DNA of 64,000 bases from an uncultured virus (IMG/VR IMGVR_UViG_3300044653_000122) (lineage: Duplodnaviria; Heunggongvirae; Uroviricota; Caudoviricetes), in IMG/VR virus record IMGVR_UViG_3300044653_000122, one strand, 5' to 3'. The number at the start of each line of letters is the position of its first letter. Position 1 is the first letter of the stretch. Shown here in pieces: positions 7,598 to 57,936 of this stretch. The notes beneath the pieces were generated by a model. It ran no database searches and was not told the DNA's origin. It was given only the letters and a program-made list of their open reading frames with translations. The translations under genes and the position numbers were made by a program.

Positions 7598-9967
7598 ATG
7601 GCACACACGACAAGTTCGTTCAAGGTGGCGACCAACCTGCACCTCGTCCGCCACACGATTTCGCAAGACAAGGCACCCCCGGCCAAGCCGGTGGAGATCC
7701 CCACCGATCACATCGCGATCTTCGACTGCTCTGGCTCGATGGCCTGGGATCTTCCCAAGATCCGCAGCCAGATGAAGAAGAAGCTCCCCAAGATGCTGAA
7801 GAAGGAGGACACCTTCTCGGCGATCTGGTTCAGCGGGCGCGGCCAGTGCGGCATCCTCCTGGAGAAGGAGCCCGTAGCGACCCTCACGGACCTCGCGACC
7901 GTGGAGAAGGCCATCGACCGCTGGCTGACCCCCAACGGTCTCACGGGCTTCAAGGACCCCCTGGAGAAGGCGGTGGGCTTGGCGGAGAAGCTCGGCGGCA
8001 AGGGTCGCGTCACCTCTCTCATGTTCCTGTCCGACGGCTGCGACAACCAGTGGCCGCGCGCCGACATCCTCAAGGTGATGGAGAAGCTCGGGCCCAAGGT
8101 CTCCTCGACCACGATCGTCGAGTACGGCTACTACGCCGATCGTCCCCTCCTGACCGCGATGGCGGAGAAGGCCGGCGGGTCGCTGATCTTCGCCGAGGAC
8201 TTCGACCGCTACGAGCCCGCCTTCGAGGGCATCCTCACGAAGAAGGTCTCGGGCGGCAAGCGTATCGAGGTCGCCGTCAAGGGGGATCCCGTCGGAGGGA
8301 TCGCCTACGCTCTCGTGGACGGAGACCTCGTGACCTTCGCGGCTTCCTCTGGCACCATCGCGGTCCCGGAGGATCTCAAGGAGGTCTTCTACCTGTCCCC
8401 ATCGTCCATCGGTGAGACCCGCTCGGACATCCACACGCTCTCGAAGAGCGAGGCGGATCCGAAGTCCGAGGTGATGGACTCCTTCGCAGTCGGCGCCACC
8501 TATGCTGCCGTCAGCCTTTTCGCCGTCCGCATGAAGCCGGACGTCGTCTTCCCGCTCCTCAAGGCGCTCGGCGATGTGAAGCTCATCGAACAGTTCGCCA
8601 ACTGTTTCGGCAAGCAGAAGTACTCCACGTTCATGGACGACGCCAAGAGCCTCGCGTTCGGGGCGGCCAAGCGCTTCGAGAAGGGCTGGGATCCGAACAA
8701 GGTCCCCCGCGACGACGCCTTCACCATCCTGCACGTGCTGGAGCTGCTCCAGACCGACTTCAAGGCCCGCGTCCTCCTCGACGACCCCAACTTCAAGTAC
8801 TCGAAGATCGGTCGTGGCCGCGTCGATGTGAGCGCCGACCTCACCGAGGCCGAGCTGGAGGAGCTACGCAAGCTCACCGACGCCCTCTCCAAGGAGAAGG
8901 ACGTCACGAAGATCAAGGAGCTGAACGGCAAGATCGCCGCCTTCACCGAGAACAAGAACGAGACGCTCAAGTTCGTCGGGACCCCCCAGCCCGACGGCTA
9001 TCCCATCCTCAAGCTGACGTTCAACGAGGACCGGCCCAACGTCTCGATCCTCACGAAGCGTCCAGGGACCATCGACCTCTCGAAACGCCTCAAGGACGCC
9101 CCCAACAAGAACATCCCGGCGACCTTCGAGACCTACGTCTACCGCAACTACGCCCTCATCAAGGACGGCCTCGTCAACGTCGAGCGACTCCCCGTGCGCG
9201 TGTCGGCCGAGACCTACACGAAACTCACCAAGGAGGGGGTCCACGACGCTCTCGGCCGCACGCCAGCCGCGGGAGGCGAGACGGTCGACCTCGTGATCGA
9301 CCTCAAGGCCCTGCCGGTCATCAACCGCCAGATGGTCAAGGCCGTGAGCGCCAAGGTCTTCTTCAACGTCCAGTACGAGCTGGTACGCGCCCAGTGCGCC
9401 CAGAAGGTCTTCAACTCCTACGCGAAGGAGTTGGGCCTGGAGAAGAAGGTTGCGGGCTTCGTCGAGAAGTACGGCGAGGACGGCACCAAGTGGCTCAAGG
9501 AGCAGGGCATCGGCGACGGCTACCAGCCGCCGCACACGAAGCAGACCGAGTCCACGGACTTCTACGTGGGCAAGGAGCTGACGGTCACCCTGGCCAAGCT
9601 GGGCAAGCTCCCGAGCCTCAAGGAAGCCAAGGAGCAGCTCAACAAGGGCAAGCTGAACGCCCCTGGCGCGCTCATGGCGGAGACCATCAAGGAGGTCGAG
9701 GCCTACATGGCGTCCTCGGCGTACACGGGCGCCGCCAACAAGGACCAGGCGATCCTCGCCTGGCTGGAGACCCACAAGAAGGCGGCGACCGAGAAGTGCC
9801 GCAAGCTCATCTTCGAGATCGCCCAGACCACCTTCGCGCTCATCGTCGGCCAGGTCTGGTTCACGGAGTTCTCCTCGATCGACGAGAACTCGATGGACCT
9901 CGACGTCGGCGGCGGTCAGAAGATCGCCTGCAAGGCCGAGATGCGCGACATCGAGATCAAAATCTGA
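7598..9967 (+). CDS. vWA domain protein
   Basis: DCSGSM, LTGF, FLSDG; strong SD and strong codon bias. Confidence 0.85.
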   Translation: MAHTTSSFKVATNLHLVRHTISQDKAPPAKPVEIPTDHIAIFDCSGSMAWDLPKIRSQMKKKLPKMLKKEDTFSAIWFSGRGQCGILLEKEPVATLTDLATVEKAIDRWLTPNGLTGFKDPLEKAVGLAEKLGGKGRVTSLMFLSDGCDNQWPRADILKVMEKLGPKVSSTTIVEYGYYADRPLLTAMAEKAGGSLIFAEDFDRYEPAFEGILTKKVSGGKRIEVAVKGDPVGGIAYALVDGDLVTFAASSGTIAVPEDLKEVFYLSPSSIGETRSDIHTLSKSEADPKSEVMDSFAVGATYAAVSLFAVRMKPDVVFPLLKALGDVKLIEQFANCFGKQKYSTFMDDAKSLAFGAAKRFEKGWDPNKVPRDDAFTILHVLELLQTDFKARVLLDDPNFKYSKIGRGRVDVSADLTEAELEELRKLTDALSKEKDVTKIKELNGKIAAFTENKNETLKFVGTPQPDGYPILKLTFNEDRPNVSILTKRPGTIDLSKRLKDAPNKNIPATFETYVYRNYALIKDGLVNVERLPVRVSAETYTKLTKEGVHDALGRTPAAGGETVDLVIDLKALPVINRQMVKAVSAKVFFNVQYELVRAQCAQKVFNSYAKELGLEKKVAGFVEKYGEDGTKWLKEQGIGDGYQPPHTKQTESTDFYVGKELTVTLAKLGKLPSLKEAKEQLNKGKLNAPGALMAETIKEVEAYMASSAYTGAANKDQAILAWLETHKKAATEKCRKLIFEIAQTTFALIVGQVWFTEFSSIDENSMDLDVGGGQKIACKAEMRDIEIKI

Positions 9968-13482: not shown

Positions 13483-13869
13483 TCACTTCAGCTCGACTAC
13501 GGCACCAGCCGCTTCGAGTTGTGACTTGAGCATCTCAGCGGAGGTCTTGTCGAGCCCTTCCTTGACGGGCTTGGGCAAACCACTCTCGACCAAGTCCTTC
13601 GCTTCTCTGAGGCCGAGACCGATCGCCGTCCGGACGGCCCTGATAACGTCGAACCTCTTCTCCCCAATGGCGACGAGCAAAACCGAAAACTCGGTCTGCT
13701 CTTGCTGTCGAGCAGATTGGACGGGTTCGACCTCAAGACTGTGGATTCCTGGCAGTGGAACGGGCTCCAACTTGATGCCCCACCTGTCTTCCAGCTCTCG
13801 CGTCAGGGAGATGAGCTGCATGACGCTCATCTGTCCGAGCGCTTGAACGATCTCTTCTTGCGTGGGCAT
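13483..13869 (-). CDS. rplL: 50S ribosomal protein L7/L12
   Basis: [36 protein letters not shown]. Confidence 0.93.
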
Positions 13870-14686: not shown

Positions 14687-14786
14687 TCCTGGGGATGGGG
14701 ATCGAACCCATATGCCTCCCGGCCACAGAGGCTCAGCGCGGGAGCACTGAGCCCGTGTGTGTGTCTTCCTGTTCCACCACCCCAGG
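14687..14786 (-). ncRNA. tRNA-like RNA with elongated anticodon arm
   Basis: acceptor CCTGGGG/CCCCAGG, Leu-like D arm, T arm, inserted GGCTCAG/CTGAGCC helix. Confidence 0.7.
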
Positions 14787-14787
14787 G

Positions 14788-14862
14788 TGTTCGCGGGGGG
14801 ATTCGAACCCCCATTCGACCGATTTTAAGGTGGTTGCCTTTTCCAATTTAGGCTACGCGAAC
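14788..14862 (-). tRNA. tRNA-Leu(TAA), short variable loop, weak anticodon stem
   Basis: loop CTTAAAA; two stem mismatches. Confidence 0.7.
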
Positions 14863-14876
14863 ATTGTCACCTTTTG

Positions 14877-21390: not shown

Positions 21391-21408
21391 ATGGTGTACT
21401 AGGTGACG

Positions 21409-21795
21409 ATGGAGCCCGAAGAGAACGACCCGATGGTCCAGTACTTTGTCGTGAAGGAGTCCCTGGGGATGTCCCCTGGGAAGCTCGGCGCTCAGGTCGC
21501 CCACGCCGAGATGCTCTTCATGCTGGAGGTCTACACGTGGGCGGTCCCCGATGTGCAGCCCCCGAAGTACAAGACCGTCGAGGAATGGCTCAAGACAAGC
21601 TACACGAAGATCCTCCTGGGGGCCTCCGACAACGAATTCGAGAAGGCCAAGACGGACGAGATTCAGCACGTCGTGGTGGTCGACCTCGGGAGGACCGAGA
21701 TCGCCGCCGGCTCGGAGACCGTCATCGGGTTCTGGCCGATGAGGAAGAGCGCCCGGTCGCGTTCCAAGGCTTTGAAGCGGCTTCGGCTGCTCTGA
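21409..21795 (+). CDS. pth2: peptidyl-tRNA hydrolase, Pth2 family
   Basis: LGMSPGKLGAQVAHA, VVDLGRTEIAAGSETVIG. Confidence 0.9.
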   Translation: MEPEENDPMVQYFVVKESLGMSPGKLGAQVAHAEMLFMLEVYTWAVPDVQPPKYKTVEEWLKTSYTKILLGASDNEFEKAKTDEIQHVVVVDLGRTEIAAGSETVIGFWPMRKSARSRSKALKRLRLL

Positions 21796-30436: not shown

Positions 30437-31603
30437 TCACTCGACGCTGACGATGACGCCCGCGCCGACCGTCTTGCTACCCTCGCGGACTGCGAACCGC
30501 ATGCCGGGCTCCAAGCCGATGGGCACCATCAACTCCAACGAGACCTGTGCGTGGTCCCCAGGGTTGATCATCTTGTTCTCGCCGAAGCCCGTCACCGTGC
30601 CGGTGACATCGGTCGTGCCGAAGAAGAACTGGGGCTTGTATCCCGGGAAGATTGGCGTGTGCCGACCACCCTCCTCCTTCGGAATCACGAACAGCTCGGC
30701 CAGGGCCTTGGCGTGAGGTTGCACGGAGCCAGGGGCGATGAGCACCTGACCACGAACCACCTCGTCCCGGGCGACGCCGCGGAGGAGCAGACCGCAGTTC
30801 TCACCCGCACGTGCCTCAGGCTGGTCCTTGTGGAACATCTGGATGCTCGTGCACACGACCTGACGGGGTTTGGAGTCCGCCTCCACGAGCCCGACGATCT
30901 CGACGGTGGACCCCGCCTTGAGGACCCCACGCTCGATACGCCCAGTGACGACGGTGCCACGACCAGGGATCGTGTGCACGCCCTCGATGGGCATCATGAA
31001 CGGCGCGTCGTAGTCCCGCTTCGGGTCGGGGAAGTGCCGGTCCATCGTGGCGACCAGCTCTGCGATGCAGGCCCCATCCTCTGCGGGGTTCTTGAGCGCC
31101 TTGAGCGCCGAACCCTTGACCACCGGGCAGTCCTTGTAACCGTGCAGCTCCAGGCGCTCGACCGTCTCCATGACGACCAGCTCCAACAGCTCGGGATCGG
31201 AGATGTCCACCTTGTTGATGAACACGACGATCCTCTGAACCCCGACCTGGCGAGCGAGCAGGATGTGTTCCTTCGTCTGGTACTGGGGTCCCTGGCTACC
31301 GTCGACCAAAAGCACGGCTCCGTCCATCTGGGCGGCCCCCGTGATCATGTTCTTGATGTAGTCAGCGTGCCCAGGGCAATCGATGTGGGCGTAGTGCCTC
31401 GTGGCACTCTCGTACTCGACGTGGGACACGTTGATGGTCACCGTCTTCGACTCGTCGCGGACCGTGCCACCCTTGGCGATGTCCGCATAGGACTTGACCT
31501 TCGCGAGCTTCGAGTACGCTTGTACGGCCAGGAGGGCTGCCGTCAGCGTGGTCTTGCCGTGGTCGACGTGCCCGATCGTGCCCACATTTACGTGCGTTTT
31601 CAC
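30437..31603 (-). CDS. tuf: elongation factor Tu
   Basis: [48 protein letters not shown]. Confidence 0.97.
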
Positions 31604-32078: not shown

Positions 32079-32733
32079 CTATCCACGGTCTTCTCCTTTC
32101 TTTGGAGTGTTATGGCTAAGGGCGAGCACCACACGGTCGACCCCAATGGCCCACCCGATGCCCTCTTTGTAGCGGCCCCCACCAGCAATTTGCTTTTGGG
32201 CGCCGAGCGTTTCAACTTCGGCCTCGAACCCGTCCTCGACGTAGTACGTGAGGCCACGCTTGACCGCAGGGTTGAACTTGTAGGGAACCTGGAGACGATC
32301 GAGGCAAGCTCGGAGCGAGCCCTCAGCCTCCTCGGTGTCCCCCTTGCCCTGACCCCCTAGGATCTCGACGCCGAACTGCGTGAACTCCCGGTACCGGCCC
32401 GCCTGTGGGCGCTCGTAGCGGTAGCAGCGCTGGCAGTAGAAGATTTGGTAGGGCCGCTTGACGCTCCGGCTCCACTCGTCGTTCCAGAGGCGTTGGATGA
32501 GTGCGGTTGCCTCAGGGATGAAGACACACCGGACGATCACCCTTGTCCCGGAAGGCCCACATCTGGTTGACGATCTCAGGACCCGCCTTCTGTACGAAGG
32601 TCTCCTGATCCCACAGGGACGGGAGGATGACCTCCTCGAACCCACGGTCCGTGAGCGTCTCCCGAATCGTTGACGTGACCTTGGTGAAGAGCTTCGCTTC
32701 GGTGCCAGTGATGACGCGGGTGCCACGGATCAT
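32079..32733 (-). CDS. minimal HisRS-like catalytic domain, split by a +1 frameshift near 32515
   Basis: RGT..GFEEV..P; PEAT; YRYERPQAGRYREFTQFGVE; RGLTYY; GGGRY; GWAIGVDR. Confidence 0.85.
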
Positions 32734-32945: not shown

Positions 32946-33407
32946 TCAGTACTCGTAACTGATGGAGTCCTTCGACAGCTTGATGTTGTACATCTTGCAC
33001 CATTCCTCGTTGCGAGGAGTGAAGGCGTAGCTGGTGAACAAATCCCAGCAGTCTTGCCGGAAGCTGCCGCCCTTCCTCTCCCGAAACCTCGACGGGACGC
33101 CCCGGAGGTGCTCATAGACCGAGCGAACATCGAGGCGCGGGACCATCTGTTCAGAGATGTTTAGCAGCCTCTCTGGTCCGGTGCCCGGATACAGCTCGTG
33201 TTCGAAAAGCGTGATGCCCACGCCTCCGAACATCCCTGAGCAGTAGAGAGTGGTCACCAAAGGCGTCGGTTCGATGAGGGCGAGCGCTCGCTCAAGATCC
33301 TCTCGTGGGATCTTTTTCCACTCATCAGCAAGCTTGATACGCTCGTTTGTTGACCACAGCTCCGCGTTCAGAGCCTTGAGCCATGCACGGTCTTCGTCGC
33401 TCAGCAC
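32946..33407 (-). CDS. hypothetical protein
   Basis: GTG 10 nt after GGTGTA motif. Confidence 0.65.
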   Translation of the reverse strand: MLSDEDRAWLKALNAELWSTNERIKLADEWKKIPREDLERALALIEPTPLVTTLYCSGMFGGVGITLFEHELYPGTGPERLLNISEQMVPRLDVRSVYEHLRGVPSRFRERKGGSFRQDCWDLFTSYAFTPRNEEWCKMYNIKLSKDSISYEY

Positions 33408-33425
33408 AACGGGGTATTACACCGG

Positions 33426-33498
33426 CACCCCTGGCCCGACTCGAACGGGCGACATTTCGTTTAGGAAACGAACGCTCTATCCACTGAGCTACAGGGGC
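33426..33498 (-). tRNA. tRNA-Arg(CCT)
   Basis: TTCGT-TTCCTAA-ACGAA. Confidence 0.9.
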
Positions 33499-33499
33499 A

Positions 33500-33578
33500 T
33501 GGGGTGACCGAGGGGATTCGAACCCCCGAATGCGAGAATCACAATCTCGTGCCTTAACCAGACTTGGCTACGGCCACC
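33500..33578 (-). tRNA. tRNA-His(GTG)
   Basis: G-1:C73, loop TTGTGAT, CCA. Confidence 0.92.
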
Positions 33579-33721
33579 ATGGTCTCAGCGTACTGAGCCT
33601 TCTTTGAATGTTCCCACGTGGCACGGCCCGTATGGGGAAACTGCACCCGCCCGCGCGCCAGCCGGATGCTTGATTGTGTGAGGCCCCTGGAGCTAGTTGA
33701 GCGCGCGGAGGCCAGAAGATG

Positions 33722-33849
33722 GGGGAATGTGCCGGGGTTAGCCGGACGCTTGTGAGGACCGCAGAGGTTGCGGGGCGCCTCTCCTCCCCTCTTGCGAGGG
33801 TTCTTGAGACGCCCGAGATGCGATCCTGGTTGAGCTGCGTCACATCCCC
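33722..33849 (-). ncRNA. module RNA 1 (shared module, no tRNA arms)
   Basis: CTCGGG..CCCCGC..ACAAGC inside GGGGATGTG/CACATTCCCC helix. Confidence 0.65.
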
Positions 33850-33872
33850 GTAAGGTGCTCAACCCTGTAAAC

Positions 33873-34006
33873 TGGAGGCGGGTCTTGGAGTCGAACCAAG
33901 CAAGCTTGTAAGCACGCGGAGTTTGCGGGGCCCCCGTGGAGGCCCGAGTGATGCGCGCTGTCGATTTCTCTTATGAGGAGAAGCGGGACCCACGTCCCTA
34001 CCCGCC
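33873..34006 (-). ncRNA. module RNA 2: tRNA shell (CAT loop, CCA) with module in variable arm
   Basis: GGCGGGT/ACCCGCC-T-CCA; TTCTC-CTCATAA-GAGAA. Confidence 0.8.
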
Positions 34007-34015
34007 ATGATATTT

Positions 34016-34151
34016 GAAGACACCCGAGGTGCAACCCTGGTCACGCCTTACGGCGAGCAGTGGGGATCGAACCCACATCCTTCGGTTTCACGTACCAACG
34101 CTCATCCAGTTGAGCTATGCTTGTTAGGGCTACGAGGTGCGGGGTGCCTTC
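34016..34151 (-). ncRNA. module RNA 3: module encloses D/anticodon(GTG)/T arms
   Basis: GAAGGCACCCCGC...CTCGGGTGTCTTC terminal helix. Confidence 0.8.
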
Positions 34152-34153
34152 AG

Positions 34154-34282
34154 AGCCGGATCCAGGAGTCGAACCTGGCGAGCTTGTTAGCGCGCTTTGG
34201 GGCGGGGTCCCCGTGGAGACCCGAGTAGTGCACGCTGTGGTTTTACCTGGGAAAGGTAGCGGGACCCACGTCCCTATCCGGC
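34154..34282 (-). ncRNA. module RNA 4: tRNA shell (TCC-like loop) with module in variable arm
   Basis: GCCGGAT/ATCCGGC acceptor, T arm. Confidence 0.8.
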
Positions 34283-34323
34283 ATGATCTCGAACTTGTCC
34301 TACTTCGAAGGCGAGGACTTGCC

Positions 34324-34438
34324 TGGGGGCGGACTCTGGAGTCGAACCAGAGGCTTGTGTGCACGTTGGGGTGCGGGGCCCCCGTAGAGGCCCGAGGAAA
34401 ACGCGCAGTGAAAGTGGGACCCACGTCCCAAGTCCGCC
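34324..34438 (-). ncRNA. module RNA 5: tRNA shell with CCA, module replaces the anticodon arm
   Basis: GGCGGAC/GTCCGCC-C-CCA. Confidence 0.8.
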
Positions 34439-34447
34439 GAAATGTTA

Positions 34448-34573
34448 GGCGACGCCCGAGTTGCAACCCTGGTGTGTGGTAGCAGCAGGAATCGAACCTG
34501 CCCTGTCTCGTTATCAGCGAGATGCTCAACCAGTGAGCTTTGCTTGTGAGGGTAGCGGGGGCGGGGCGCCGCC
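34448..34573 (-). ncRNA. module RNA 6: module encloses D/anticodon(GAT)/T arms
   Basis: GGCGGCGCCCCGC...CTCGGGCGTCGCC. Confidence 0.8.
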
Positions 34574-34575
34574 AG

Positions 34576-34708
34576 CGCCGGATGAAGGAGTCGAACCTTC
34601 CTAGCTTGTAAGCACGCGTGGTTGCGGGGTCCCCTAAGAGACCCGAGTGGTGCGCGCTGGGAATGGCTTCCTTAACAGGGAAGTGACCTCCCCGAGGTCT
34701 AATCCGGC
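34576..34708 (-). ncRNA. module RNA 7: tRNA shell (GTT loop) with module in variable arm
   Basis: GCCGGAT/ATCCGGC; CTTCC-CTGTTAA-GGAAG. Confidence 0.8.
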
Positions 34709-34717
34709 ATGATGTTA

Positions 34718-34844
34718 GGAGACGCCCGAGATGCAACCCTGTTGTGTGTGCAGCGGGTGTCGAAACCCGCAACCCACGGCTTGAGAGGCCGTTGCTCTAC
34801 CATTGAGCTATGCTTGTGAGGGCTGCGAGGGGCGGGGCGCCTCC
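34718..34844 (-). ncRNA. module RNA 8: module encloses D/anticodon(CTC)/T arms
   Basis: GGAGGCGCCCCGC...CTCGGGCGTCTCC. Confidence 0.8.
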
Positions 34845-34846
34845 AG

Positions 34847-34980
34847 GGCCGACTGTGGGAATCGAACCCACTATGCTTGTATGCGCGTTGTGGGGCGGGG
34901 TCCCCGTGGAGACCCGAGATGTACGCGCAGGTGAATTGCTTCCTGTTCAGGGAAGTGCCCAACCGGAGGGCTTAGTCGGC
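34847..34980 (-). ncRNA. module RNA 9: tRNA shell (GAA loop) with module in variable arm
   Basis: GCCGACT/AGTCGGC; CTTCC-CTGAACA-GGAAG. Confidence 0.8.
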
Positions 34981-35017
34981 GAAACGTACGAGACTGGAAC
35001 TACTGAGAGAAGATTTC

Positions 35018-35163
35018 GGTCACGCCCGAGATTGACGCCTGTGTGCTGTATGTTCACTTTCGATGTGAATGCCTTACCGTTAGGCTACATCTCCCGAAGG
35101 AGGTGATGGGACTCGAACCCACATTTTGTGCTTGTAAGGCGTCGTGCTTGGCGGGGCGCGACC
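35018..35163 (-). ncRNA. module RNA 10: module encloses a permuted tRNA (T arm, TTCG-capped acceptor, D arm, anticodon arm)
   Basis: GGTCGCGCCCCGC...CTCGGGCGTGACC. Confidence 0.8.
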
Positions 35164-35166
35164 TAG

Positions 35167-35311
35167 CTGGGGGTCTAGGATTCGAACCTAGAAGAGCTTG
35201 TTTGAACCGCTTTTTGGCGGGGTCCCCGTGGAGACCCGAGATGCGATCCAGGGTTTTGCTTTCGCAACGTGGTTTGGAATCACGCTGGCCTGCCATCGGC
35301 CAATACCCCCA
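35167..35311 (-). ncRNA. module RNA 11: tRNA shell (CCA loop) with module in variable arm
   Basis: TGGGGGT/ACCCCCA acceptor, T arm. Confidence 0.8.
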
Positions 35312-35390
35312 ATGGGTTGTCGAGGAGTGACCCCGACGAGGAGGAGAGGTTACGTCTTGCCGGAACGACCGTCAAGATTTTTTGTGGGGG

Positions 35391-35972
35391 TCAGATTCGA
35401 ATCGTACCCCCGGGGCTGACCTGGTAGGACAGGCGCGCCCCCTTGCCGACGAACTCCTTGACGGAGTGTGCAACGTAAGCGGAAACGACCGCGAGGAAGG
35501 GGAGGTGCTCCCCGTTCTCACACGTCGGAGCGCCCTGGGCGTCCTCTTCGTCGATGACGAACGACTCGTCCCACGCTACGCGGCCGAAGTTGCCGTTGGC
35601 ATCCACAGCCGCATGAAGGCAGGGGATCTTGGCTTTGCGGACGAAGGTCTGGATGACACGCCGAGAGGCAGCGTTGTCCAGACAATCGACCACAAGGTCC
35701 GCTCCCCCGAGGAGCTGTTCAGCGTTGTCCGAAACGAGCTTGTTCGAGTTCGTCTGGAGCTTGACGCCGAAGAGGAGATCCATCGCTCCGGCGAGAGCCA
35801 GCACCTTCGGCTTACCTACGCCCGGCTTGCCGTGGAACTGGCTCTGGATGTTCTTCGCCTCCACACGGTCGAAGTCGATGACCTTGAGGGCCGCCTTGAC
35901 GTTGCGGAGGAGCATGACGGCCTGGGACCCGAGGGCACCCACGCCGACGAATACGATGGTCTTCATCTTCAT
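35391..35972 (-). CDS. ThiF/E1-like adenylyltransferase
   Basis: GVGALGS, IDFDRVEAKNIQSQ, GKPKV, VVDCLDN; candidate Cys in PTCE. Confidence 0.9.
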   Translation of the reverse strand: MKMKTIVFVGVGALGSQAVMLLRNVKAALKVIDFDRVEAKNIQSQFHGKPGVGKPKVLALAGAMDLLFGVKLQTNSNKLVSDNAEQLLGGADLVVDCLDNAASRRVIQTFVRKAKIPCLHAAVDANGNFGRVAWDESFVIDEEDAQGAPTCENGEHLPFLAVVSAYVAHSVKEFVGKGARLSYQVSPGGTIRI

Positions 35973-36033
35973 CTCCCTCGGGACATCACCAAGCCCCTCT
36001 GGTTACTACACCAGAGGGGCCAGCGAAATCCTC

Positions 36034-36306
36034 TCAACCATAGGCAGTCTTGGGTCTCACGAAAATGCGGTTGTGGTCCGCCTGCCCCGGCGCCGGATTG
36101 GCCGGCGCGTCGAAGCGGTCGACCATGAAGTTCGTGAGGTCGACGTTGGGATCCGCCACCACACCGGGAACGGATCCCGTGCGGATGGCCTCGGCCGCCC
36201 ACCCCTTGATGTCACCGTCCCCCGCCTGGTAGTGCACGGGGTCCGGCAGCTCGAAGTTCTGCCCGTTGTAGGTGATGTTCACCCGGGCCTCGTGAGGCTG
36301 GATCAT
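36034..36306 (-). CDS. putative ubiquitin-like protein
   Basis: 90 aa, beta-grasp-like pattern, ends RIFVRPKTAYG; lies between JAB and E1. Confidence 0.65.
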   Translation of the reverse strand: MIQPHEARVNITYNGQNFELPDPVHYQAGDGDIKGWAAEAIRTGSVPGVVADPNVDLTNFMVDRFDAPANPAPGQADHNRIFVRPKTAYG

Positions 36307-36710
36307 GGCTGCATCTCCTTCTGATCTGTTACCGGCTGCGAGTGCCGGCGAAGTTCCTCGACCCAAGGCGGCTCGTCGTAGACCTTCGAGACGCTGTAGT
36401 CGTACCGATTGGGACCGACCCACCGGACCACCACAAGACGGTCCATGCTGGCGATCCACCACTTGTATCGTCGCCCGAGCCCGCTCTCGCAGGCCTCGTA
36501 CGTCGTGATGTCTTCCCAAGAAGGGCCCGGCCAACCGAGGCCAGGGTGGCTGTGCGCCTGCCCCGACATGGTGAGCCGGTTCTCCCAGTAGACATCCCAG
36601 AGCTTGGGGCTGTCAGGGAGCGCGACGACATTTCGGTTGGTTGGCAGGTGCCAGTAAACAACCTGCGTCTCATCGGACCCGATGACAACCCCTGCTTCGC
36701 GCATGTTCAT
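36303..36710 (-). CDS. JAB/JAMM metallo-isopeptidase
   Basis: N-terminal E (REAG), HSHP....PSWED. Confidence 0.85.
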   Translation of the reverse strand: MNMREAGVVIGSDETQVVYWHLPTNRNVVALPDSPKLWDVYWENRLTMSGQAHSHPGLGWPGPSWEDITTYEACESGLGRRYKWWIASMDRLVVVRWVGPNRYDYSVSKVYDEPPWVEELRRHSQPVTDQKEMQP

Positions 36711-36719
36711 GTCGACCCC

Positions 36720-37697
36720 CTAATCCTCGAAGTCATCATGGTCCTCGAAGTCATCGTCTCCCGCGTGACGGTTGACGACGAGCACGCGATCCCGATCGGC
36801 TGCGAGGATGACGGCCGGCAGAGATTCCAGGGTGAACTTGGTGTCACCCACCTCTCCAGTCGCGTGATTGACGAGACAGATGCCTGCGTTGATGATCCGA
36901 AGAGTCGTCGAATCGCAGGTGGAAACGTACTGGCGACGTGCGAGACGGTAGGTCACGACCATCTCGTTGCGTTGGTACCCCTTCTTGTGGTCGAGGTACT
37001 CGGCCCCGCCGAGCGCCAGAGCAGCGCGAGCCGCTTGGGCGAAGTCGAGTTGGGCCATGGCACGACGACCCTCCCCCGTGCCAAGCTGCTGAGCGATCTG
37101 TTGTCTTCGCTCTTCAGCCAGCCGCTTGGCCTCTTCCTCCTGACGCCTGCGCTCCTCTACGGCACGCCGACGCTCGGTCTCCGTCCGCATGAACGACTCC
37201 ATGCGGAAGGCTGCATCGAGAGCAGGGAGGACGTTGGGAATGCCTCCAACGTCAGCCTTGCGGTCGAAATAGGCCTGGAGAACATCCGTTTCCGGACCCA
37301 AAGGAAAGTCCTGCGTCTTGTAGACGAGGGGACCATCCTCGAAGGGGCGACCCGCCACGACCCGCACAAAGCGATCGAGGCTGGGGTCGAGAAGAGCAAC
37401 CGGCTCGGAGTAGCCGATGATCTTTGCAGGGTCGGGATCCACGTGCACAGCGTCGGGAACGATGCGGTCCCCCACGAGGTACCCACGGATCTCATGACCG
37501 AGAATATCGGTTTGGGGGTCCGAAGCCTTGTCCAGGAACGCCTTGCGCCCGTTGAGCTTGAAGTTGTACCAGCCGACCTCCTTCGGAAGTCGACCGTCAA
37601 TGTTCCAGGTACGAGCACCCGACCGGAGATCCCTCCCTCCCAGCCAGGGCGAGACCAAGGCCTCATTGCCCGTCTGTAGAAGGTCTCTCCACGACAT
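36720..37697 (-). CDS. hypothetical protein with possible C-terminal E2-like domain
   Basis: coiled coil then beta-rich domain with AGICL..D.KFTLESL; operon context. Confidence 0.6.
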   Translation of the reverse strand: MSWRDLLQTGNEALVSPWLGGRDLRSGARTWNIDGRLPKEVGWYNFKLNGRKAFLDKASDPQTDILGHEIRGYLVGDRIVPDAVHVDPDPAKIIGYSEPVALLDPSLDRFVRVVAGRPFEDGPLVYKTQDFPLGPETDVLQAYFDRKADVGGIPNVLPALDAAFRMESFMRTETERRRAVEERRRQEEEAKRLAEERRQQIAQQLGTGEGRRAMAQLDFAQAARAALALGGAEYLDHKKGYQRNEMVVTYRLARRQYVSTCDSTTLRIINAGICLVNHATGEVGDTKFTLESLPAVILAADRDRVLVVNRHAGDDDFEDHDDFED

Positions 37698-37757
37698 GCT
37701 CATCTCCATCTGGTGGAGGAAAAACCCCACCACCTTCACAGATGGTGGGGTTCCCTG

Positions 37758-39683
37758 TTACGCCGCCTTCGACGACACGGGCACGGAAGCCCAGGCCGGC
37801 TTCTTGAGCAGGTCCGTCTTGAGGATCGTGTCCACGAGGGTCACGCGCGGAACTGCCACCTGCCCGGTGGCCTTGCCGACCGGAGTCGCCGCGATCAGGG
37901 CGCGGATCGTACGCGGGATGGCGTACGGGTCCGCTGCACCTCCGGTTGCGACCTGACCGAAGATACGCTGATCGACCGAGAAGCACGGGATGCCGAGGAC
38001 AGCAGCCGCGTTGGGGACGCACTTGTAGTTCTCGCCCTGGAGTTCGAGGAACCCGAACGCCACGGGGTTGAGCTTCGAGTCGCGGATGGCCGCCACGAGA
38101 CCGTGAGTCTCGCGCTGACCACCGTCACCAACCCAGACCATGATGCAGTCCTCGTCCGGTGCCGGCTTACGCCGGTCCGTGAGCGCCGAACGAACACCCG
38201 CGCTGTGGTCGGTCCCACCCCCTGCGGCGATACCGCGGAAGGCGTTCTCGACGCCAGCCTTGCTCGCGTGCTTGATCTCAACGACACGGCCCGCCGTGTT
38301 GAAGACCACCGTCACCGTCTTGTCCAGGGGGAAGCCCTGGAGGAACTGCGCGATGTAGGTCATCGACGCCTGGATCGACGCGCTCATCGAGCCCGAGATG
38401 TCGATGATGAAGTACACGAAAAGGCCCTTGATGACCTCCGCCACCTGCTTCTGGAGCGCGGTGTCGGCAGCCTGCTGGAGCTTATCCTTGCCCTCCTTCG
38501 ACTTCATGCGGAGCGCGATGTTGGCCGCCCGCATGTTCTCGGCTTCCCGAAGAGCCTTGTCGAGGCGCTCACGGTAGGTCTGGACCTGGAGCAGACCCAG
38601 CTCTTCGATCGTCGGAGCCAGGTTGATCATCTCCGCGTTGGAGATGCACCCCGACTCGATCGCGGCACCCATGATCGCCCTCGTGAGGCCGACACCCTTC
38701 GGCAACATGGCCGAGAGGCGGTTCCACTTCGGGCGGTCCTTGACGACACGTTCGCAGACCTGCTCCTCGGTCAGGCCGTCCCACGTCTCCGCGGCAGCGA
38801 CCTTCTCGTTGAGAGCGAGCTTGCGACGGCCGTCGCTGGACTGCACCTGCTTCCACCGAAGCGTCTGGTAGAACTTCGGCGTGAGCGGGACATACCGAGC
38901 CTGGCAGGCGAGGGAGATGACACTCCAACGCGCACCCGACTTGATGAGCCCTTCGAGCAGCTTGGGGTTACGCTCGCGGTAGGCGAGCCAGCGGTTCACC
39001 GCCTTGGGCCAGCGACCCAGCTCCGGGCGCCGAGCGGACTTGCCAAAGCCCAGCTCGTGGTTGATCTTGGCGATCTGCGGCAGCGAGAGCAGCTCGCGAG
39101 CGCGGACCAGGAGCTTGGCGTTGAAGCCGCCCTTCTCCTTGTCGAGAAGGAACATGGCCTCGCCGACCTCACGGAAGTCGTCGTCGAAGAACGCAAGCTT
39201 GCCGTTCTCCACGACCTCCTGCCCGCAGCGGCTCTGCACGAGCATGAACGCAGCGAGCACGACCTTGAGGTCCCGGTGCTCCTGCCCGAATGCGAACGAA
39301 GCCCAACGGGCCGCGAACTCGTTGTCCAGCTTCCAGACCTCGGCGACCTGCTGGTAGAGCCAGACCGCGACCTCCGTGAAGAAGCCGGGCTTGCGATACT
39401 CGCCGACGCGAGTCGTACCGTTCATGATCGTCTTCTTGTCCGCCGCGAACTCGCCGGCCTTGACCCAGGCCGTCTTCTTGCCGACCTTGCTTCCGAGGTA
39501 AAGGACACGCTTACGCGCGTCTCCCTCGCCCTCGTACTTGGCCTTCGCGAAGGCCCACTTGACGCCGACCACCGAGGTCGGGTCCGGCGTGACCATGCCG
39601 GGGCGGTTGTGAACGCAGTGGTCCACGTAAGGCGTGAGCGACGCGATGATGCGCTCCGCCGGTCCAAGATTCTCGTTCGCCAT
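37758..39683 (-). CDS. Ro60/TROVE-like helical domain + vWA protein
   Basis: long helical region then IIDISGSM, GGTD, VGDG; start placed at MANENL after GGTGTA motif. Confidence 0.65.
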   Translation of the reverse strand: MANENLGPAERIIASLTPYVDHCVHNRPGMVTPDPTSVVGVKWAFAKAKYEGEGDARKRVLYLGSKVGKKTAWVKAGEFAADKKTIMNGTTRVGEYRKPGFFTEVAVWLYQQVAEVWKLDNEFAARWASFAFGQEHRDLKVVLAAFMLVQSRCGQEVVENGKLAFFDDDFREVGEAMFLLDKEKGGFNAKLLVRARELLSLPQIAKINHELGFGKSARRPELGRWPKAVNRWLAYRERNPKLLEGLIKSGARWSVISLACQARYVPLTPKFYQTLRWKQVQSSDGRRKLALNEKVAAAETWDGLTEEQVCERVVKDRPKWNRLSAMLPKGVGLTRAIMGAAIESGCISNAEMINLAPTIEELGLLQVQTYRERLDKALREAENMRAANIALRMKSKEGKDKLQQAADTALQKQVAEVIKGLFVYFIIDISGSMSASIQASMTYIAQFLQGFPLDKTVTVVFNTAGRVVEIKHASKAGVENAFRGIAAGGGTDHSAGVRSALTDRRKPAPDEDCIMVWVGDGGQRETHGLVAAIRDSKLNPVAFGFLELQGENYKCVPNAAAVLGIPCFSVDQRIFGQVATGGAADPYAIPRTIRALIAATPVGKATGQVAVPRVTLVDTILKTDLLKKPAWASVPVSSKAA

Positions 39684-39801
39684 GTTCTGATCCGATCTCG
39701 GCGACACACCTTCGCCGTTTCCTAGTAATACACCGCCGTGGTGCGGGATCCCCGAAGAGATCCGAGATGGCGATGCAGAGGTCCCGAGGAAGCCGGGAAC
39801 C

Positions 39802-39878
39802 TGGTCGGGGAGGGGGGATTCGAACCCCCAACAACGAGCACCCAAAGCTCGTGCACTACCGGGTTGTGCTACCCCCCG
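39802..39878 (-). tRNA. tRNA-Pro(TGG)
   Basis: CGAGC-TTTGGGT-GCTCG, CCA. Confidence 0.92.
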
Positions 39879-39905
39879 AAGTTCTTCTTGTGGACCGAGC
39901 AGGAC

Positions 39906-40175
39906 ATGGATCCGCTCACGCCCCGCGTCGTCCGCCGCTACCTTGCCTTCAAACACCAGCCGAAGGAAACCAAGGAACACAAAGTGGAACGGGTACGGGA
40001 CCTCATCCGCCAGCACACCGGCCTCTCGAAGGGTCAGGCGGAAGCCATCGCCGACGCCCATGTCCGAGGACGTGAGGTCGAGCGGTTGGCCATCCAGAAG
40101 TCCTGGCCCATCGAGCACGGGGCCATCAAAGGCCCGTCCGGTACGCTGGAGCTGTCGAAGCTACCGAAAGATTGA
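39906..40175 (+). CDS. hypothetical protein (MDPLTPRVVRRY N-terminus)
   Basis: shared N-terminal motif; TCTTGT upstream. Confidence 0.65.
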   Translation: MDPLTPRVVRRYLAFKHQPKETKEHKVERVRDLIRQHTGLSKGQAEAIADAHVRGREVERLAIQKSWPIEHGAIKGPSGTLELSKLPKD

Positions 40176-40176
40176 A

Positions 40177-40362
40177 GGATCGCGCCCGAGGTTGTGCAGC
40201 AGTTGTGCCTTTTCAGGACAGCTTCCATTTGCTGTTGCGTCTTCCATTCCGCCACTGGCCCATTTTGGGGGTCCGAAGACCCTTGTGGGCCAGCCTGGAC
40301 TCGAACCAGGAATCCCCTTGCGGGGTTGCTTGTGTGCTTCACAGGATTGCGGGGCGCGATCC
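40177..40362 (-). ncRNA. module RNA 12: module encloses a permuted tRNA
   Basis: GGATCGCGCCCCGC..ACAAGC..T arm..CTGGCCC/GGGCCAG..D arm..CTCGGGCGCGATCC. Confidence 0.8.
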
Positions 40363-40364
40363 AG

Positions 40365-40438
40365 TAGGCATGGGGGGAGTTGAACCCACGACCTCAGCCT
40401 TATCAGGGCTGCGCTCTAACCAACTGAGCTACATGCCT
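40365..40438 (-). tRNA. tRNA-Ile(GAT)
   Basis: CAGCC-CTGATAA-GGCTG. Confidence 0.92.
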
Positions 40439-40460
40439 GTGTAAACAACCTTTCGGCCAG

Positions 40461-40532
40461 TTGGCGCGAGAGGGATTGAACCTCCGACCTTCCCCGTGTC
40501 AGGGGGATGCTCTACCACTGAGCTACGCGCCA
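40461..40532 (-). tRNA. tRNA-Val(GAC)
   Basis: TCCCC-CTGACAC-GGGGA. Confidence 0.92.
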
Positions 40533-57378: not shown

Positions 57379-57936
57379 ATGTCTCTACTCCAAGTGCGCC
57401 ACTTTCCGGACCCGATCCTTAAGAAGGTCTGCGAGCCCGTGCATGAGATCGACGACGGCCTGCGCATGTTCCTCGTGGACATGGCCGAGACGATGATCGC
57501 CCAGAAGGGGGTAGGTCTCGCGGCCCCTCAAGTTGGCCGCTCGCAGCGGTTCTTCGTGGTCGACATCTGGTGGCCCTCCGACCAGGACGACAAGACCCTG
57601 ATTTTCATCAATCCGAAGATCACAGCGTACGAAGGCTCACAGCGTGGGCTGGAGGGGTGTCTTTCGATCCCCGGCGTCTTCGAGCACGTCACCCGGGCAC
57701 AGAAGATTCGTGTGGTGGCGCAGGATATCAACAGCCAGGTCTTCGAGCTGGACGCAGAGGGATTTCTTGCGGTCGCCATTCAACACGAGTTCGACCACCT
57801 GAACGGCGTGCTGACGTTTGACCGTCTCGGCCCCCTCGCGAGAAAGATGGCCACGAAGAAGTACGATCAGGCCAGCGAGGCACGTGCCCGGGACCGTAAG
57901 GGTGGTCCTCAGCTCTCGGTTGCGAAGAGACCCTAG
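57379..57936 (+). CDS. def: peptide deformylase
   Basis: GVGLAAPQVG, EGCLSIP, QHEFDHLNG. Confidence 0.96.
   Translation: MSLLQVRHFPDPILKKVCEPVHEIDDGLRMFLVDMAETMIAQKGVGLAAPQVGRSQRFFVVDIWWPSDQDDKTLIFINPKITAYEGSQRGLEGCLSIPGVFEHVTRAQKIRVVAQDINSQVFELDAEGFLAVAIQHEFDHLNGVLTFDRLGPLARKMATKKYDQASEARARDRKGGPQLSVAKRP

What the first reader, a model, noticed from the sequence alone, without database searches (positions are those of the whole stretch)
33873..35311. Three circular-permutation topologies of the same tRNA+module RNA, largely alternating in the array
Seen: type A has a normal acceptor end with the module closed by a loop in the variable arm (33873, 34154, 34576, 34847, 35167) or replacing the anticodon arm (34324). 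Two type A copies encode CCA. Type B has the module as the terminal helix in place of the acceptor stem (34016, 34448, 34718). Type C has the module terminal and the tRNA permuted, with the acceptor stem capped (TTCG loop at 35018, a hairpin insert at 40177). Inference: the 3D architecture is under selection rather than the ends. Type A could be aminoacylated or bound by EF-Tu, whereas B and C cannot be charged unless further processed.
Basis: partly seen in the sequence, partly recalled or inferred. Interest (0 to 1): 0.88.

Follow-up and report, generated by a model that had tools for sequence, protein, structure and literature searches.

The report
Phage array of modular tRNA-shaped RNAs
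A giant phage carries a row of about a dozen small RNA genes that join a tRNA-like body to one conserved two-helix handle in several wirings, and they look like an expanded, rewired relative of bacterial Y RNAs whose protein partner is still unidentified.

Summary
On the minus strand, 35311-33723 holds 11 tandem tRNA-like units, with a further unit at 40360-40177 and a handle-only copy at 39780-39718. Each carries one module: helix Pa, an internal loop with invariant CUC, helix Pb, then NU-ACAAGC.

- **Type A:** the module is hairpin-capped in the variable-arm position.
- **Type C:** the module is open as the RNA termini and the acceptor stem is capped. This is a true circular permutation of A and has YrlA topology.
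- **Type B:** the module is open and sits on a 3-4 bp acceptor stub. This is not a circular permutation of A.

My covariance model found 85 closed modules in 38 of 64 sources, all on the gene strand, with 13 of 13 pairs covarying. Types B, C and a tRNA-less mini form recur in other giant phages.

The arrays flank a conserved cassette: a 641-aa vWA protein, a 339-aa protein, JAB and an E1-like ThiF. Distant cassette homologues in cultured myxobacteria have type C RNAs directly upstream, and one matches Rfam YrlA over its full length (43.8 bits, E 4e-8, below the 69-bit cut-off).

Best reading: divergent Y-RNA-like adaptor RNAs diversified in phage tRNA islands.

The parts
35167..35311 (-). Unit A1, type A: acceptor stem, D arm, anticodon-like arm (CCA triplet in a 9-nt loop), small hairpin, closed module, T arm. 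Discriminator G, then CUA.
   Evidence: (54.8 bits)
35018..35163 (-). Unit C1, type C: 10-bp terminal helix Pb, Pa, ACAAGC, T arm, UUCG-capped acceptor stem, D arm, anticodon arm, CUC.
   Evidence: (RF02553 partial hit 35071-35123, 25.8 bits, E 0.0097)
34847..34980 (-). Unit A2, type A, anticodon loop GAA.
   Evidence: (72.1 bits)
34718..34844 (-). Unit B2, type B: terminal Pb, Pa, ACAAGC running into a 3-bp acceptor stub, then D, anticodon (CUC) and T arms.
   Evidence: (RF00005 positions 5-66, 45.4 bits)
34576..34708 (-). Unit A3, type A, anticodon loop GUU.
   Evidence: (70.6 bits)
34448..34572 (-). Unit B3, type B, anticodon loop GAU.
34324..34438 (-). Unit A4, type A without an anticodon arm. 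CCA is encoded after the discriminator.
   Evidence: (61.9 bits)
34154..34282 (-). Unit A5, type A, anticodon-like loop UCC, short-looped D-like hairpin.
   Evidence: (68.5 bits)
34016..34150 (-). Unit B4, type B. ARAGORN calls its body tRNA-His(GUG) at 34052-34124. An extra GUAA hairpin lies in the 3' linker.
33873..34006 (-). Unit A6, type A, anticodon loop CAU. CCA is encoded.
   Evidence: (60.7 bits)
33723..33849 (-). Unit A7, type A-like. The module's Pb (9 bp) is capped by a 24-nt insert with its own GCAA hairpin. The T-like arm is degenerate.
   Evidence: (46.4 bits)
40177..40360 (-). Unit C2, type C, with a hairpin insert capping the acceptor stem. It lies about 500 nt upstream of the 641-aa gene.
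   Evidence: score 15; an orthologous unit lies in L041 at about 7000-7150
39718..39780 (-). Handle-only copy of the module (Pa, CUC, Pb with UUCG loop, no ACAAGC, no tRNA part) in the leader of the 641-aa gene, 35 nt before its start codon.
   Evidence: (46.4 bits)
37758..39683 (-). Gene of the 641-aa protein (P0001): N-terminal region of about 415 aa in no detectable family, plus a C-terminal vWA domain. It is the first gene of the conserved cassette and my candidate partner of the module.
36720..37739 (-). 339-aa cassette protein with no family match.
36303..36710 (-). JAB/JAMM-like cassette protein (just below the Pfam cut-off).
35391..35972 (-). E1-like ThiF-family adenylyltransferase, the last cassette gene. 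The RNA array begins about 80 nt after its stop codon.

Best explanation
These are genes for a divergent, phage-expanded branch of the bacterial Y RNA (YrlA-type) class. Each RNA is a bipartite adaptor.

- **Handle.** One part is a conserved protein-docking module: helix Pb, an internal loop with invariant CUC, helix Pa, and a single-stranded junction of CC on one strand and NU-ACAAGC on the other.
- **Payload.** The other part is a tRNA-shaped domain, or in mini forms just small hairpins.

The module can be the RNA's terminal stem, as in Y RNAs (types B, C and mini). It can also be a capped side arm at the variable-arm position of an end-intact tRNA mimic (type A).

Inferred steps:
1. The units are transcribed with the surrounding tRNA island.
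2. They are cut apart by the tRNA-processing enzymes acting at the type A acceptor ends. That would also set the ends of the open units packed between them.
3. The module is bound by a product of the adjacent cassette, most likely the 641-aa vWA protein acting as a functional counterpart of Ro60/Rsr.
4. The tRNA-like domain recruits or decoys a tRNA-recognising factor, in the service of tRNA and RNA surveillance or repair during infection.

Shown here: the RNA folds, their conservation and covariation, their genomic linkage to the cassette, and the similarity of the myxobacterial members to YrlA.

Not shown: transcription beyond one RNA-library contig, RNA ends, the binding partner and the biological role.
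For: **Structure and conservation of the module**
- My model R2 found 85 closed modules at E <= 0.05 in 38 of 64 sources (1.09 Mb). All 85 lie on the strand of the cassette gene and none on the other strand.
- On that model-fitted alignment, 93.6% of cells pair and 13 of 13 pairs show compensatory change. 0 of 500 shuffles reached this, and slid controls pair at 33-55%.
- CUC is present in 84-85 of 85 copies and the positions of ACAxGC in 83-84 of 85.

**tRNA context of closed modules**
- 76 of 84 distinct closed modules are followed by a T arm and a 7-nt strand that pairs (>= 6 of 7) with a 7-mer 24-67 nt upstream. This is the type A arrangement.

**Open forms**
- My script found 42 open modules at score >= 15 on the gene strand of 69 loci, against 0 on the opposite strand.
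- Among 34 distinct open modules, Pb is 9-11 bp in 23.
- Folds of 6 of 6 tested open units from other phages give type B or C, with z-scores from -2.9 to -5.1.
- RNAalifold on a plain MAFFT alignment of 15 type B units predicted 26 pairs, 21 of them with compensatory change.
- Mini forms without a tRNA part exist, as YrlB does beside YrlA.

**Linkage to the cassette**
- The gene order 641-aa, p339, JAB, ThiF holds in 57-64 of 68 loci.
- The first module RNA lies within 600 nt after the ThiF stop in 24 of 47 loci, and 35 of 47 have modules flanking the cassette.
- In 5 whole phage records (2.0 Mb), 13 of 13 R2 hits cluster within about 9 kb downstream of the gene.
- A handle-only copy sits in the gene's leader in the window and in 7 of 54 loci, against 1 of 54 in an internal control.

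**Bridge to Y RNAs**
- Homologues at 33-39% identity in cultured myxobacteria keep the cassette. They have type C or B module RNAs directly beside the gene.
- The RNA in the Myxococcus xanthus AM003 locus aligns to Rfam YrlA over model positions 1-114 at 43.8 bits, E 4e-8.
- Window unit C1 gives a partial YrlA hit.
- The NUAC that precedes AAGC sits where YrlA has its conserved YUAY (PMC4201824, section 6 read).

**Context**
- RtcB lies in the window. The known rsr-yrlBA-rtcBA link is described in passages of PMC4201824 and in the abstract of PMC7790460.
Against: - No sequence method places the 641-aa family in TROVE/Ro60. Pfam TROVE was found in 0 of 49 members and not in the myxobacterial homologue. 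PDB searches by sequence and by profile returned vWA hits only. A Ro60 HMM scored the family at noise level, like reversed sequences.
- hhalign gave only 10% probability over 125 collinear columns. The language-model look-up gave TROVE clusters at 0.85 with a low shared-feature count, which is a lead only.
- The Rsr-binding motif GNCGAAN0-1G of YrlA is absent: 0 of 13 window units and 1 of 38 open units elsewhere.
- No unit reaches the Rfam YrlA gathering score.
- Arrays can lie far from the cassette, for example 232 kb away in one complete 436-kb genome, inside a second tRNA island. Linkage may therefore be partly to tRNA islands in general.
- Expression evidence is a single 200-nt, depth-3 contig in one metatranscriptome, and this could be DNA carry-over.
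- Type A has no precedent among described Y RNAs.
Confidence: 0.55

Rival explanations
1. The module is an excisable, intron-like or processing element. A protein endonuclease would cut at the conserved single-stranded CUC and ACAAGC sites. The phage RtcB would then ligate the ends, turning type A precursors into ordinary tRNAs, and perhaps circularising or re-permuting types B and C.
For: - An intein-containing RtcB is encoded in the window.
- The module sits exactly at a loop position of the tRNA.
- With the two helices removed, 30 of 84 type A units are called tRNA by ARAGORN.
- The conserved nucleotides are single-stranded and flank helices.
Against: - 54 of 84 units are not recognisable as tRNA even after removal of the helices, and 4 of the 30 recognised have aberrant anticodon loops. 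Some lack the anticodon arm or have 3-4-nt D loops.
- The window already encodes canonical tRNAs with the same anticodons (Phe, Asn, Gly, Met, His).
- Type B has only a 3-4 bp acceptor stub, so excision cannot give a chargeable tRNA.
- Mini forms and the leader copy have no tRNA to mature.
- No known self-cleaving ribozyme or intron family matched at E <= 10.
- By inspection of the folds, the internal loop is not a bulge-helix-bulge.
Confidence: 0.12
2. The units are free tRNA decoys or sponges. Their tRNA-shaped bodies, many with intact anticodon loops, would soak up host tRNA-targeting defence nucleases or tRNA-modifying enzymes. The module would be only a stabilising clamp or nuclease-resistant cap, not a docking site for the cassette protein.
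For: - Type B bodies keep canonical D, anticodon and T arms with U33-type 7-nt loops and varied anticodons.
- The RNAs sit in large phage tRNA islands beside RtcB, tmRNA, EF-Tu and PTH2, which is a translation-maintenance setting.
- Arrays can lie far from the cassette.
Against: - A mere clamp would not need invariant single-stranded CUC and ACAAGC across phages whose helix sequences are otherwise unrelated.
- Handle-only and mini forms exist without tRNA bodies.
- Linkage to the cassette persists down to 33% protein identity, into myxobacterial genomes.
Confidence: 0.15
3. Type A units are functional, chargeable tRNAs with an extra arm that serves as an identity or recruitment element for phage translation factors, namely the phage EF-Tu and the synthetase fragment. 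Types B and C would be by-products of tandem duplication.
For: - Type A has 7-bp acceptor stems with a discriminator. CCA is encoded in 16 of 76 units.
- A phage EF-Tu and a HisRS fragment lie 2-3 kb downstream.
- Class II tRNAs show that long variable arms are tolerated (established knowledge).
Against: - Orthologous units in the related contig differ in their anticodon loops. Window A1 has a CCA triplet in a 9-nt loop, whereas L039 U1 has a loop without U33.
- Many units lack a normal D loop or the whole anticodon arm.
- Types B, C and mini are themselves conserved with covariation, so they are not debris.
Confidence: 0.08

Closest known systems
YrlA, the tRNA-like bacterial and mycobacteriophage Y RNA (Rfam RF02553; Chen et al. 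2014, PMC4201824)
   Same: - Type C has the same order: terminal stem from the 5' and 3' ends, T arm, loop-capped acceptor stem, D arm.
- The family occurs as tandem small-RNA genes beside a vWA-containing protein gene, with RtcB in the same genome.
- A tRNA-less sibling exists (mini form here, YrlB there).
- A pyrimidine-U-A-pyrimidine element precedes the T arm.
- The myxobacterial member aligns to RF02553 over its full length at E 4e-8.
- For comparison, I located a canonical Ro/YrlA pair in mycobacteriophage Bxz1.
   Different: - All units score below the 69-bit gathering threshold.
- The GNCGAAN0-1G Rsr motif is absent.
- The terminal stem has its own conserved signature, CUC and ACAAGC.
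- Type C here keeps an anticodon arm.
- Types A and B have no described YrlA counterpart.
- The neighbouring protein has no detectable TROVE domain and comes with a p339, JAB and E1-like cassette rather than being Rsr alone.
Circularly permuted tRNA genes of the red alga Cyanidioschyzon merolae (recalled; the topic is mentioned in the search listing)
   Same: In type C the 3' half of a tRNA-shaped gene precedes the 5' half. An RtcB-type ligase is available in the genome.
   Different: - Those genes mature through a circular intermediate into normal tRNAs.
- Here the acceptor stem is sealed by a tetraloop or hairpin, the bodies are often degenerate, and no evidence of circularisation was obtained.
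- Tandem duplication of type A units would by itself generate type C.
Class II tRNAs (Leu, Ser, Tyr) with long variable arms
   Same: Type A carries its extra helix at the variable-arm position of an otherwise tRNA-like cloverleaf.
   Different: - The arm is about 60 nt, with two helices, an internal loop and invariant single-stranded motifs.
- The same module also occurs detached from any tRNA.
- ARAGORN and Rfam tRNA do not call type A units.
tRNA-punctuated processing of neighbouring small RNAs, e.g. mascRNA/MALAT1 (recalled; Rfam RF01684 appeared only as a weak chance hit)
   Same: Open units are packed 0-3 nt after the discriminator-plus-three of a type A unit and about 9 nt before the next acceptor stem. 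RNase P and RNase Z cuts at type A would therefore release them.
   Different: Processing here is inferred from the spacing alone. No ends were mapped.

Membership tests
YrlA / bacterial Y RNA (RF02553) | Score at or above the Rfam gathering threshold (69 bits) | tested here: not met
   Window: best 25.8 bits, partial (model 30-81), at 35071-35123; none at gathering. Myxococcus xanthus AM003 relative: 43.8 bits, full length, E 4e-8.
YrlA / bacterial Y RNA (RF02553) | Permuted tRNA-like domain (T arm, capped acceptor stem, D arm) enclosed by a stem formed from the 5' and 3' ends | tested here: met
   Met for type C units 35163-35018 and 40360-40177 and for type C units of other phages and myxobacteria. 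Not met for types A and B.
YrlA / bacterial Y RNA (RF02553) | GNCGAAN0-1G Rsr-binding motif near the 5' end (PMC4201824, section 6) | tested here: not met
   0 of 13 window units; 1 of 38 open units elsewhere.
YrlA / bacterial Y RNA (RF02553) | Encoded beside a Ro60/Rsr (TROVE) gene | tested here: not met
   No Pfam TROVE among 57 window ORFs scanned, nor in 5 related phage records. The neighbouring 641-aa vWA family has TROVE in 0 of 49 members.
Ro60/TROVE protein family (for the 641-aa neighbour) | TROVE HEAT-repeat ring followed by a vWA domain | tested here: inconclusive
   The vWA domain with a DxSGSM MIDAS motif is at the C-terminus, as in Ro60. For the N-terminal part: language-model look-up gave TROVE clusters at 0.85 (lead only), hhalign gave 10% probability, and the HMM scored at noise level.
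tRNA (RF00005 / ARAGORN) | Detected as tRNA with a 7-bp acceptor stem and a canonical anticodon loop | tested here: not met
   Type A units are not called. After in-silico removal of the two helices, 30 of 84 are called, 4 with aberrant loops. Type B bodies hit RF00005 only over positions 4-67 or 5-66, with 3-4 bp acceptor stubs.
Known self-cleaving ribozymes and introns in Rfam 15 | Match to any ribozyme or intron covariance model | tested here: not met
   The permissive cmscan of 33500-35500 at E <= 10 returned only tRNA, YrlA and three weak unrelated hits.
Permuted tRNA genes matured via a circular intermediate | Circular RNA intermediate and a mature tRNA product | not testable with these tools
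   Only contigs were available. One RNA-library contig spans the A2/B2 junction. No junction reads can be assessed.

The most novel reading that the evidence does not exclude
A protein with no detectable kinship to Ro60, working with an E1-like enzyme and a JAB peptidase, has its own family of tRNA-shaped adaptor RNAs. Giant phages of myxobacteria have turned that handle into a portable tag. In type A the tag sits on end-intact, CCA-bearing tRNA mimics that can still enter tRNA pathways (RNase P and Z, CCA addition, perhaps charging and the phage EF-Tu). The phage could then tether or mark components of the translation or tRNA-repair machinery through one common handle. That would be a new ribonucleoprotein system, convergent with Ro/Y RNA rather than a member of it.
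Probability: 0.15. Interest if true: 0.9.

Novelty: new variant of a known kind. Interest (0 to 1): 0.76.

Why it matters
Y RNAs are known as one wiring: a Ro-binding terminal stem plus an effector domain. Here the same handle is found in at least four wirings, all kept by selection across many giant phages:
- a capped side arm of a tRNA mimic,
- a terminal stem on a permuted tRNA mimic,
- a terminal stem on an acceptor-less tRNA body,
- alone, without a tRNA part.

This is a natural experiment showing which parts of such an adaptor RNA matter.

The finding also links a large, unannotated phage and myxobacterial protein family (more than 1,200 homologues), and its JAB/E1 neighbours, to a defined RNA partner.

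The relatives in cultured Myxococcus offer a tractable host in which to ask a long-open question: what the tRNA-like half of bacterial Y RNAs is for.

Tried and rejected
- **Whole-genome searches of the window's own genome.** None is held.
- **Exact pattern scan of IMG/VR for the closed module.** It gave 37 single matches, all chance-like, with no hairpin and no T arm.
- **blastn of the array against GenBank phages.** One 57-nt tRNA-like match only.
- **RNA-first pattern scan** (TACAAGC, 3-10 nt, GGTTCGANTCC). Many matches were ordinary tRNA-Val(UAC) anticodon loops. 18 of 78 loci searched with R2 had hits at E <= 0.01. 17 of these lie on contigs already known to carry the 641-aa gene. The 18th is a 27%-complete fragment without it.
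- **Is CCA encoded only where no open unit follows, and CUR where one does?** This holds for 6 of 6 window cases. In the wider set it is inconclusive: CCA with an open unit 1, CCA without 15; CUR with 8, CUR without 18. My detector for a following open unit was too strict.
- **Assigning p339.** PHROGs, PADLOC, NCBIfam, Pfam, the language-model atlas and a PDB profile search gave nothing significant.
- **Promoter and terminator scan of 33300-40500.** Nothing on the minus strand and counts at chance level.
- **Sequencing runs.** RNA run X7 gave one 200-nt contig at 34727-34925, depth about 3. That is not enough to claim transcription or ends.
- **Earlier notes of this scan.** None for this genome or this protein.
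- **Literature searches.** Searches found no description of this module, of type A or B wirings, or of the cassette. Only listings and abstracts of those hits were seen, apart from the papers read as cited. Supplements of PMC4201824, which list phage YrlA RNAs, were not opened and may bear on whether any of these phages was covered.
- **Structure prediction of the 641-aa protein.** It could not be run.
Full report
**Setting**

The window is phage-like at 60% G+C. ARAGORN finds 54 tRNA genes and a tmRNA, all on the minus strand, and Rfam confirms them. The same strand also encodes:
- an intein-containing RtcB (893-3373),
- EF-Tu (30437-31603),
- L7/L12 and a HisRS fragment.

Two further translation genes, a PTH2 peptidyl-tRNA hydrolase (21403-21795) and a peptide deformylase (57379-57936), lie on the plus strand.

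No whole genome is held. The finding must therefore be read on the minus strand.

**The observation**

Read that way, 35311-33723 is a head-to-tail row of 11 units, with a short hairpin between two of them. Every unit contains one module. In RNA sense the module is:
1. a 6-7 bp helix Pa,
2. 1-4 nt,
3. an invariant CUC,
4. a helix Pb,
5. a 5-8 nt return strand,
6. the second strand of Pa,
7. two nucleotides, then ACAAGC.

In six units Pb is closed by a tetraloop and the module sits between the anticodon arm and the T arm of a cloverleaf with a 7-bp acceptor stem. This is type A. One of these units lacks the anticodon arm. A seventh unit (33849-33723) has a hairpin insert in the Pb loop.

In three units Pb is formed by the two ends of the RNA, and ACAAGC runs into a 3-4 bp acceptor stub followed by D, anticodon and T arms. 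This is type B.

In 35163-35018 and 40360-40177 Pb is again terminal, but ACAAGC is followed by the T arm, a loop-capped acceptor stem, the D arm and the anticodon arm. This is type C.

MFE folding reproduces the stated wiring for 10 of 10 units.

One correction is needed. A and C are circular permutations of each other. B is not, because its module lies between the acceptor strands rather than between the anticodon and T arms.

**Is it more than chance?**

A related contig (L039/L041, neighbouring protein 57-61% identical) has a syntenic array with types A, B and C, and its helices are changed in a compensatory way.

I built a covariance model from six closed modules and rebuilt it from 28 hits. 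Searching the window plus 63 loci around homologues of the neighbouring protein (1.09 Mb) gave these results:
- 85 hits at E <= 0.05, in 38 sources, all on the gene's strand and none on the other.
- 93.6% of cells pair on that alignment and all 13 pairs show double changes.
- No shuffle of 500 matches this, and sliding the partner drops pairing to 33-55%. The alignment is fitted to the model, which favours it.
- The unpaired CUC and ACAAGC are near-invariant, while the helix sequences are unrelated between phages.

76 of 84 distinct closed modules have the type A context of T arm plus acceptor pairing.

For open modules I wrote a pairing script.
- At score >= 15 it finds 42 on the gene strand and none on the opposite strand of 69 loci.
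- Pb is typically 9-11 bp.
- Three classes appear: T arm first (type C), T arm after the D and anticodon arms (type B), and short mini forms with only small hairpins.
- Six open units from other phages fold as expected.
- RNAalifold on an ordinary MAFFT alignment of 15 type B units finds Pa, part of Pb and the three tRNA arms, with compensatory change in 21 of 26 pairs.

**Are type A units tRNAs?**

ARAGORN and Rfam do not call them. With the two helices removed in silico, 30 of 84 are called, with varied anticodons, and four of those have aberrant loops. Others have 3-4-nt D loops or no anticodon arm. The window already has canonical tRNAs for the same anticodons. Most type A units therefore look like mimics.

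**Genomic context**

The real neighbouring gene encodes 641 aa (37758-39683). It has more than 1,200 homologues, mostly on contigs of 100-600 kb.

Across 68 IMG/VR loci the order 641-aa protein, 339-aa protein, JAB, E1-like ThiF is kept in 57-64. The first module RNA starts within 600 nt of the ThiF stop in 24 of 47 loci, and modules flank the cassette in 35 of 47.

In five whole phage records all 13 model hits lie in one cluster within about 9 kb downstream of the gene.

A handle-only copy, with no ACAAGC and no tRNA part, lies in the leader of the 641-aa gene in the window (39780-39718) and in 7 of 54 loci. An internal control region gave 1 of 54. This hints at autoregulation.

Arrays can also lie in other tRNA islands far from the cassette.

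**What is it like?**

Rfam at permissive thresholds gives only tRNA and YrlA hits in the array and no ribozyme or intron family.

YrlA is the tRNA-like Y RNA bound by bacterial Ro60 (Rsr). It has exactly the type C order, it is encoded beside rsr, and it is often near rtcB (PMC4201824: abstract, section 6 and passages read; PMC7790460: abstract; PMC7824862: passages on TROVE in jumbo phages).

I located a canonical pair, Ro60 with Pfam TROVE plus vWA_Ro60 and a YrlA-like RNA upstream, in mycobacteriophage Bxz1 for comparison. Its stem carries the GNCGAA-type motif. The units here do not.

A scan of one genome per prokaryote species found 80 homologous loci.
- The closer homologues, mostly contigs binned with Myxococcota, again have closed modules: 26 hits, all on the gene strand.
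- The distant homologues (33-39% identity) include cultured Myxococcus, Citreicoccus, Pyxidicoccus and Paraliomyxa. They keep the p339/JAB(/ThiF) cassette and have type C or B module RNAs directly beside the gene.
- The RNA in the M. xanthus AM003 locus aligns to RF02553 over all 114 model positions at 43.8 bits, E 4e-8, below the 69-bit cut-off.

So the family grades into YrlA.

**The partner protein**

The protein beside these RNAs has a C-terminal vWA domain with a MIDAS motif, as Ro60 does, and an N-terminal region of about 415 aa. No sequence method ties that region to TROVE:
- Pfam: 0 of 49 members, and not in the Myxococcus homologue.
- PDB sequence and profile searches: vWA hits only.
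- A Ro60 HMM: noise level.
- hhalign: 10% probability over a collinear 125 columns.
- A language-model look-up: TROVE clusters first, but at scores that shuffled proteins often reach.

**Mechanism I commit to (0.55)**

These are Y-RNA-like adaptors. The CUC/ACAAGC two-helix module is a protein handle, most likely for the 641-aa protein acting as a Ro60 counterpart. The tRNA-shaped part engages a tRNA-recognising factor.

In the phage the units are made from tRNA-island transcripts. The packing suggests that RNase P and RNase Z cuts at type A acceptor ends release the open units. An open unit starts three nucleotides after a type A discriminator and ends about nine before the next acceptor.

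Tandem duplication of type A units would by itself create type C. A relative seen in a sequencing run lacks three units, so copy number is fluid.

Everything about binding, processing and role is inferred.

**Rivals**
- An excisable intron-like element with RtcB ligation (0.12).
- Free tRNA decoys with the module as a clamp (0.15).
- Chargeable tRNAs with an extra identity arm (0.08).

**Novelty**

Five literature searches found no description of this module, of the type A and B wirings, or of the cassette. I rate it a new variant of a known kind, namely Y RNA or tRNA-mimic adaptors. The rewiring is unusually informative, and there is a possible non-Ro60 partner.

Noticed in passing
window 893-3373 (-): RtcB RNA ligase interrupted by an intein (Pfam RtcB 1.3e-81 plus Intein_splicing 6.5e-16) in an 826-aa ORF.
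   Followed up: no
window 30437-31603 (-), 13483-13869 (-), 21403-21795 (+), 57379-57936 (+), 32079-32726 (-): The phage encodes its own EF-Tu, ribosomal protein L7/L12, PTH2 peptidyl-tRNA hydrolase and peptide deformylase. It also has a 215-aa fragment resembling the HisRS catalytic core.
   Followed up: no
window 14785-14863 (-): ARAGORN calls a tRNA with a four-base anticodon (aaaa) in an enlarged loop. Rfam scores it as tRNA at 54.9 bits. It is a possible frameshift-suppressor-type tRNA.
   Followed up: no
window 33893-34289 and 33604-33860: A 90-95% similar relative in sequencing run X4 replaces these stretches (units A5, B4, A6 and most of A7) with 56 and 67 other letters. The array therefore varies in unit number between close relatives.
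   Followed up: partly
L128 9796-10633 (contig of L084, 436 kb, complete): A second array of five closed modules lies 232 kb from the cassette gene of the same genome, inside another tRNA island.
   Followed up: partly
L302 4722-4868 and 4878-5470 (Myxococcus xanthus AM003 contig): A second type C module RNA, with UACAAGC, sits directly upstream of a separate ORF of about 197 aa that precedes the YrlA-like RNA and the 589-aa gene. That ORF has no Pfam match within the longer frame I scanned.
   Followed up: partly
window 7598-9967 (+): A 789-aa ORF on the opposite strand to nearly all other genes, with GC3 of 0.93 and no Pfam match.
   Followed up: no
window 5665-7338 (-): A second vWA protein (557 aa, vWA at the N-terminus) lies next to tRNA-Ser. 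It is unrelated in architecture to the 641-aa protein.
   Followed up: no
window 43109-43024 (-): My open-module script scored 14 here, with a 9-bp outer helix, overlapping tRNA-Asn. This is probably chance.
   Followed up: no
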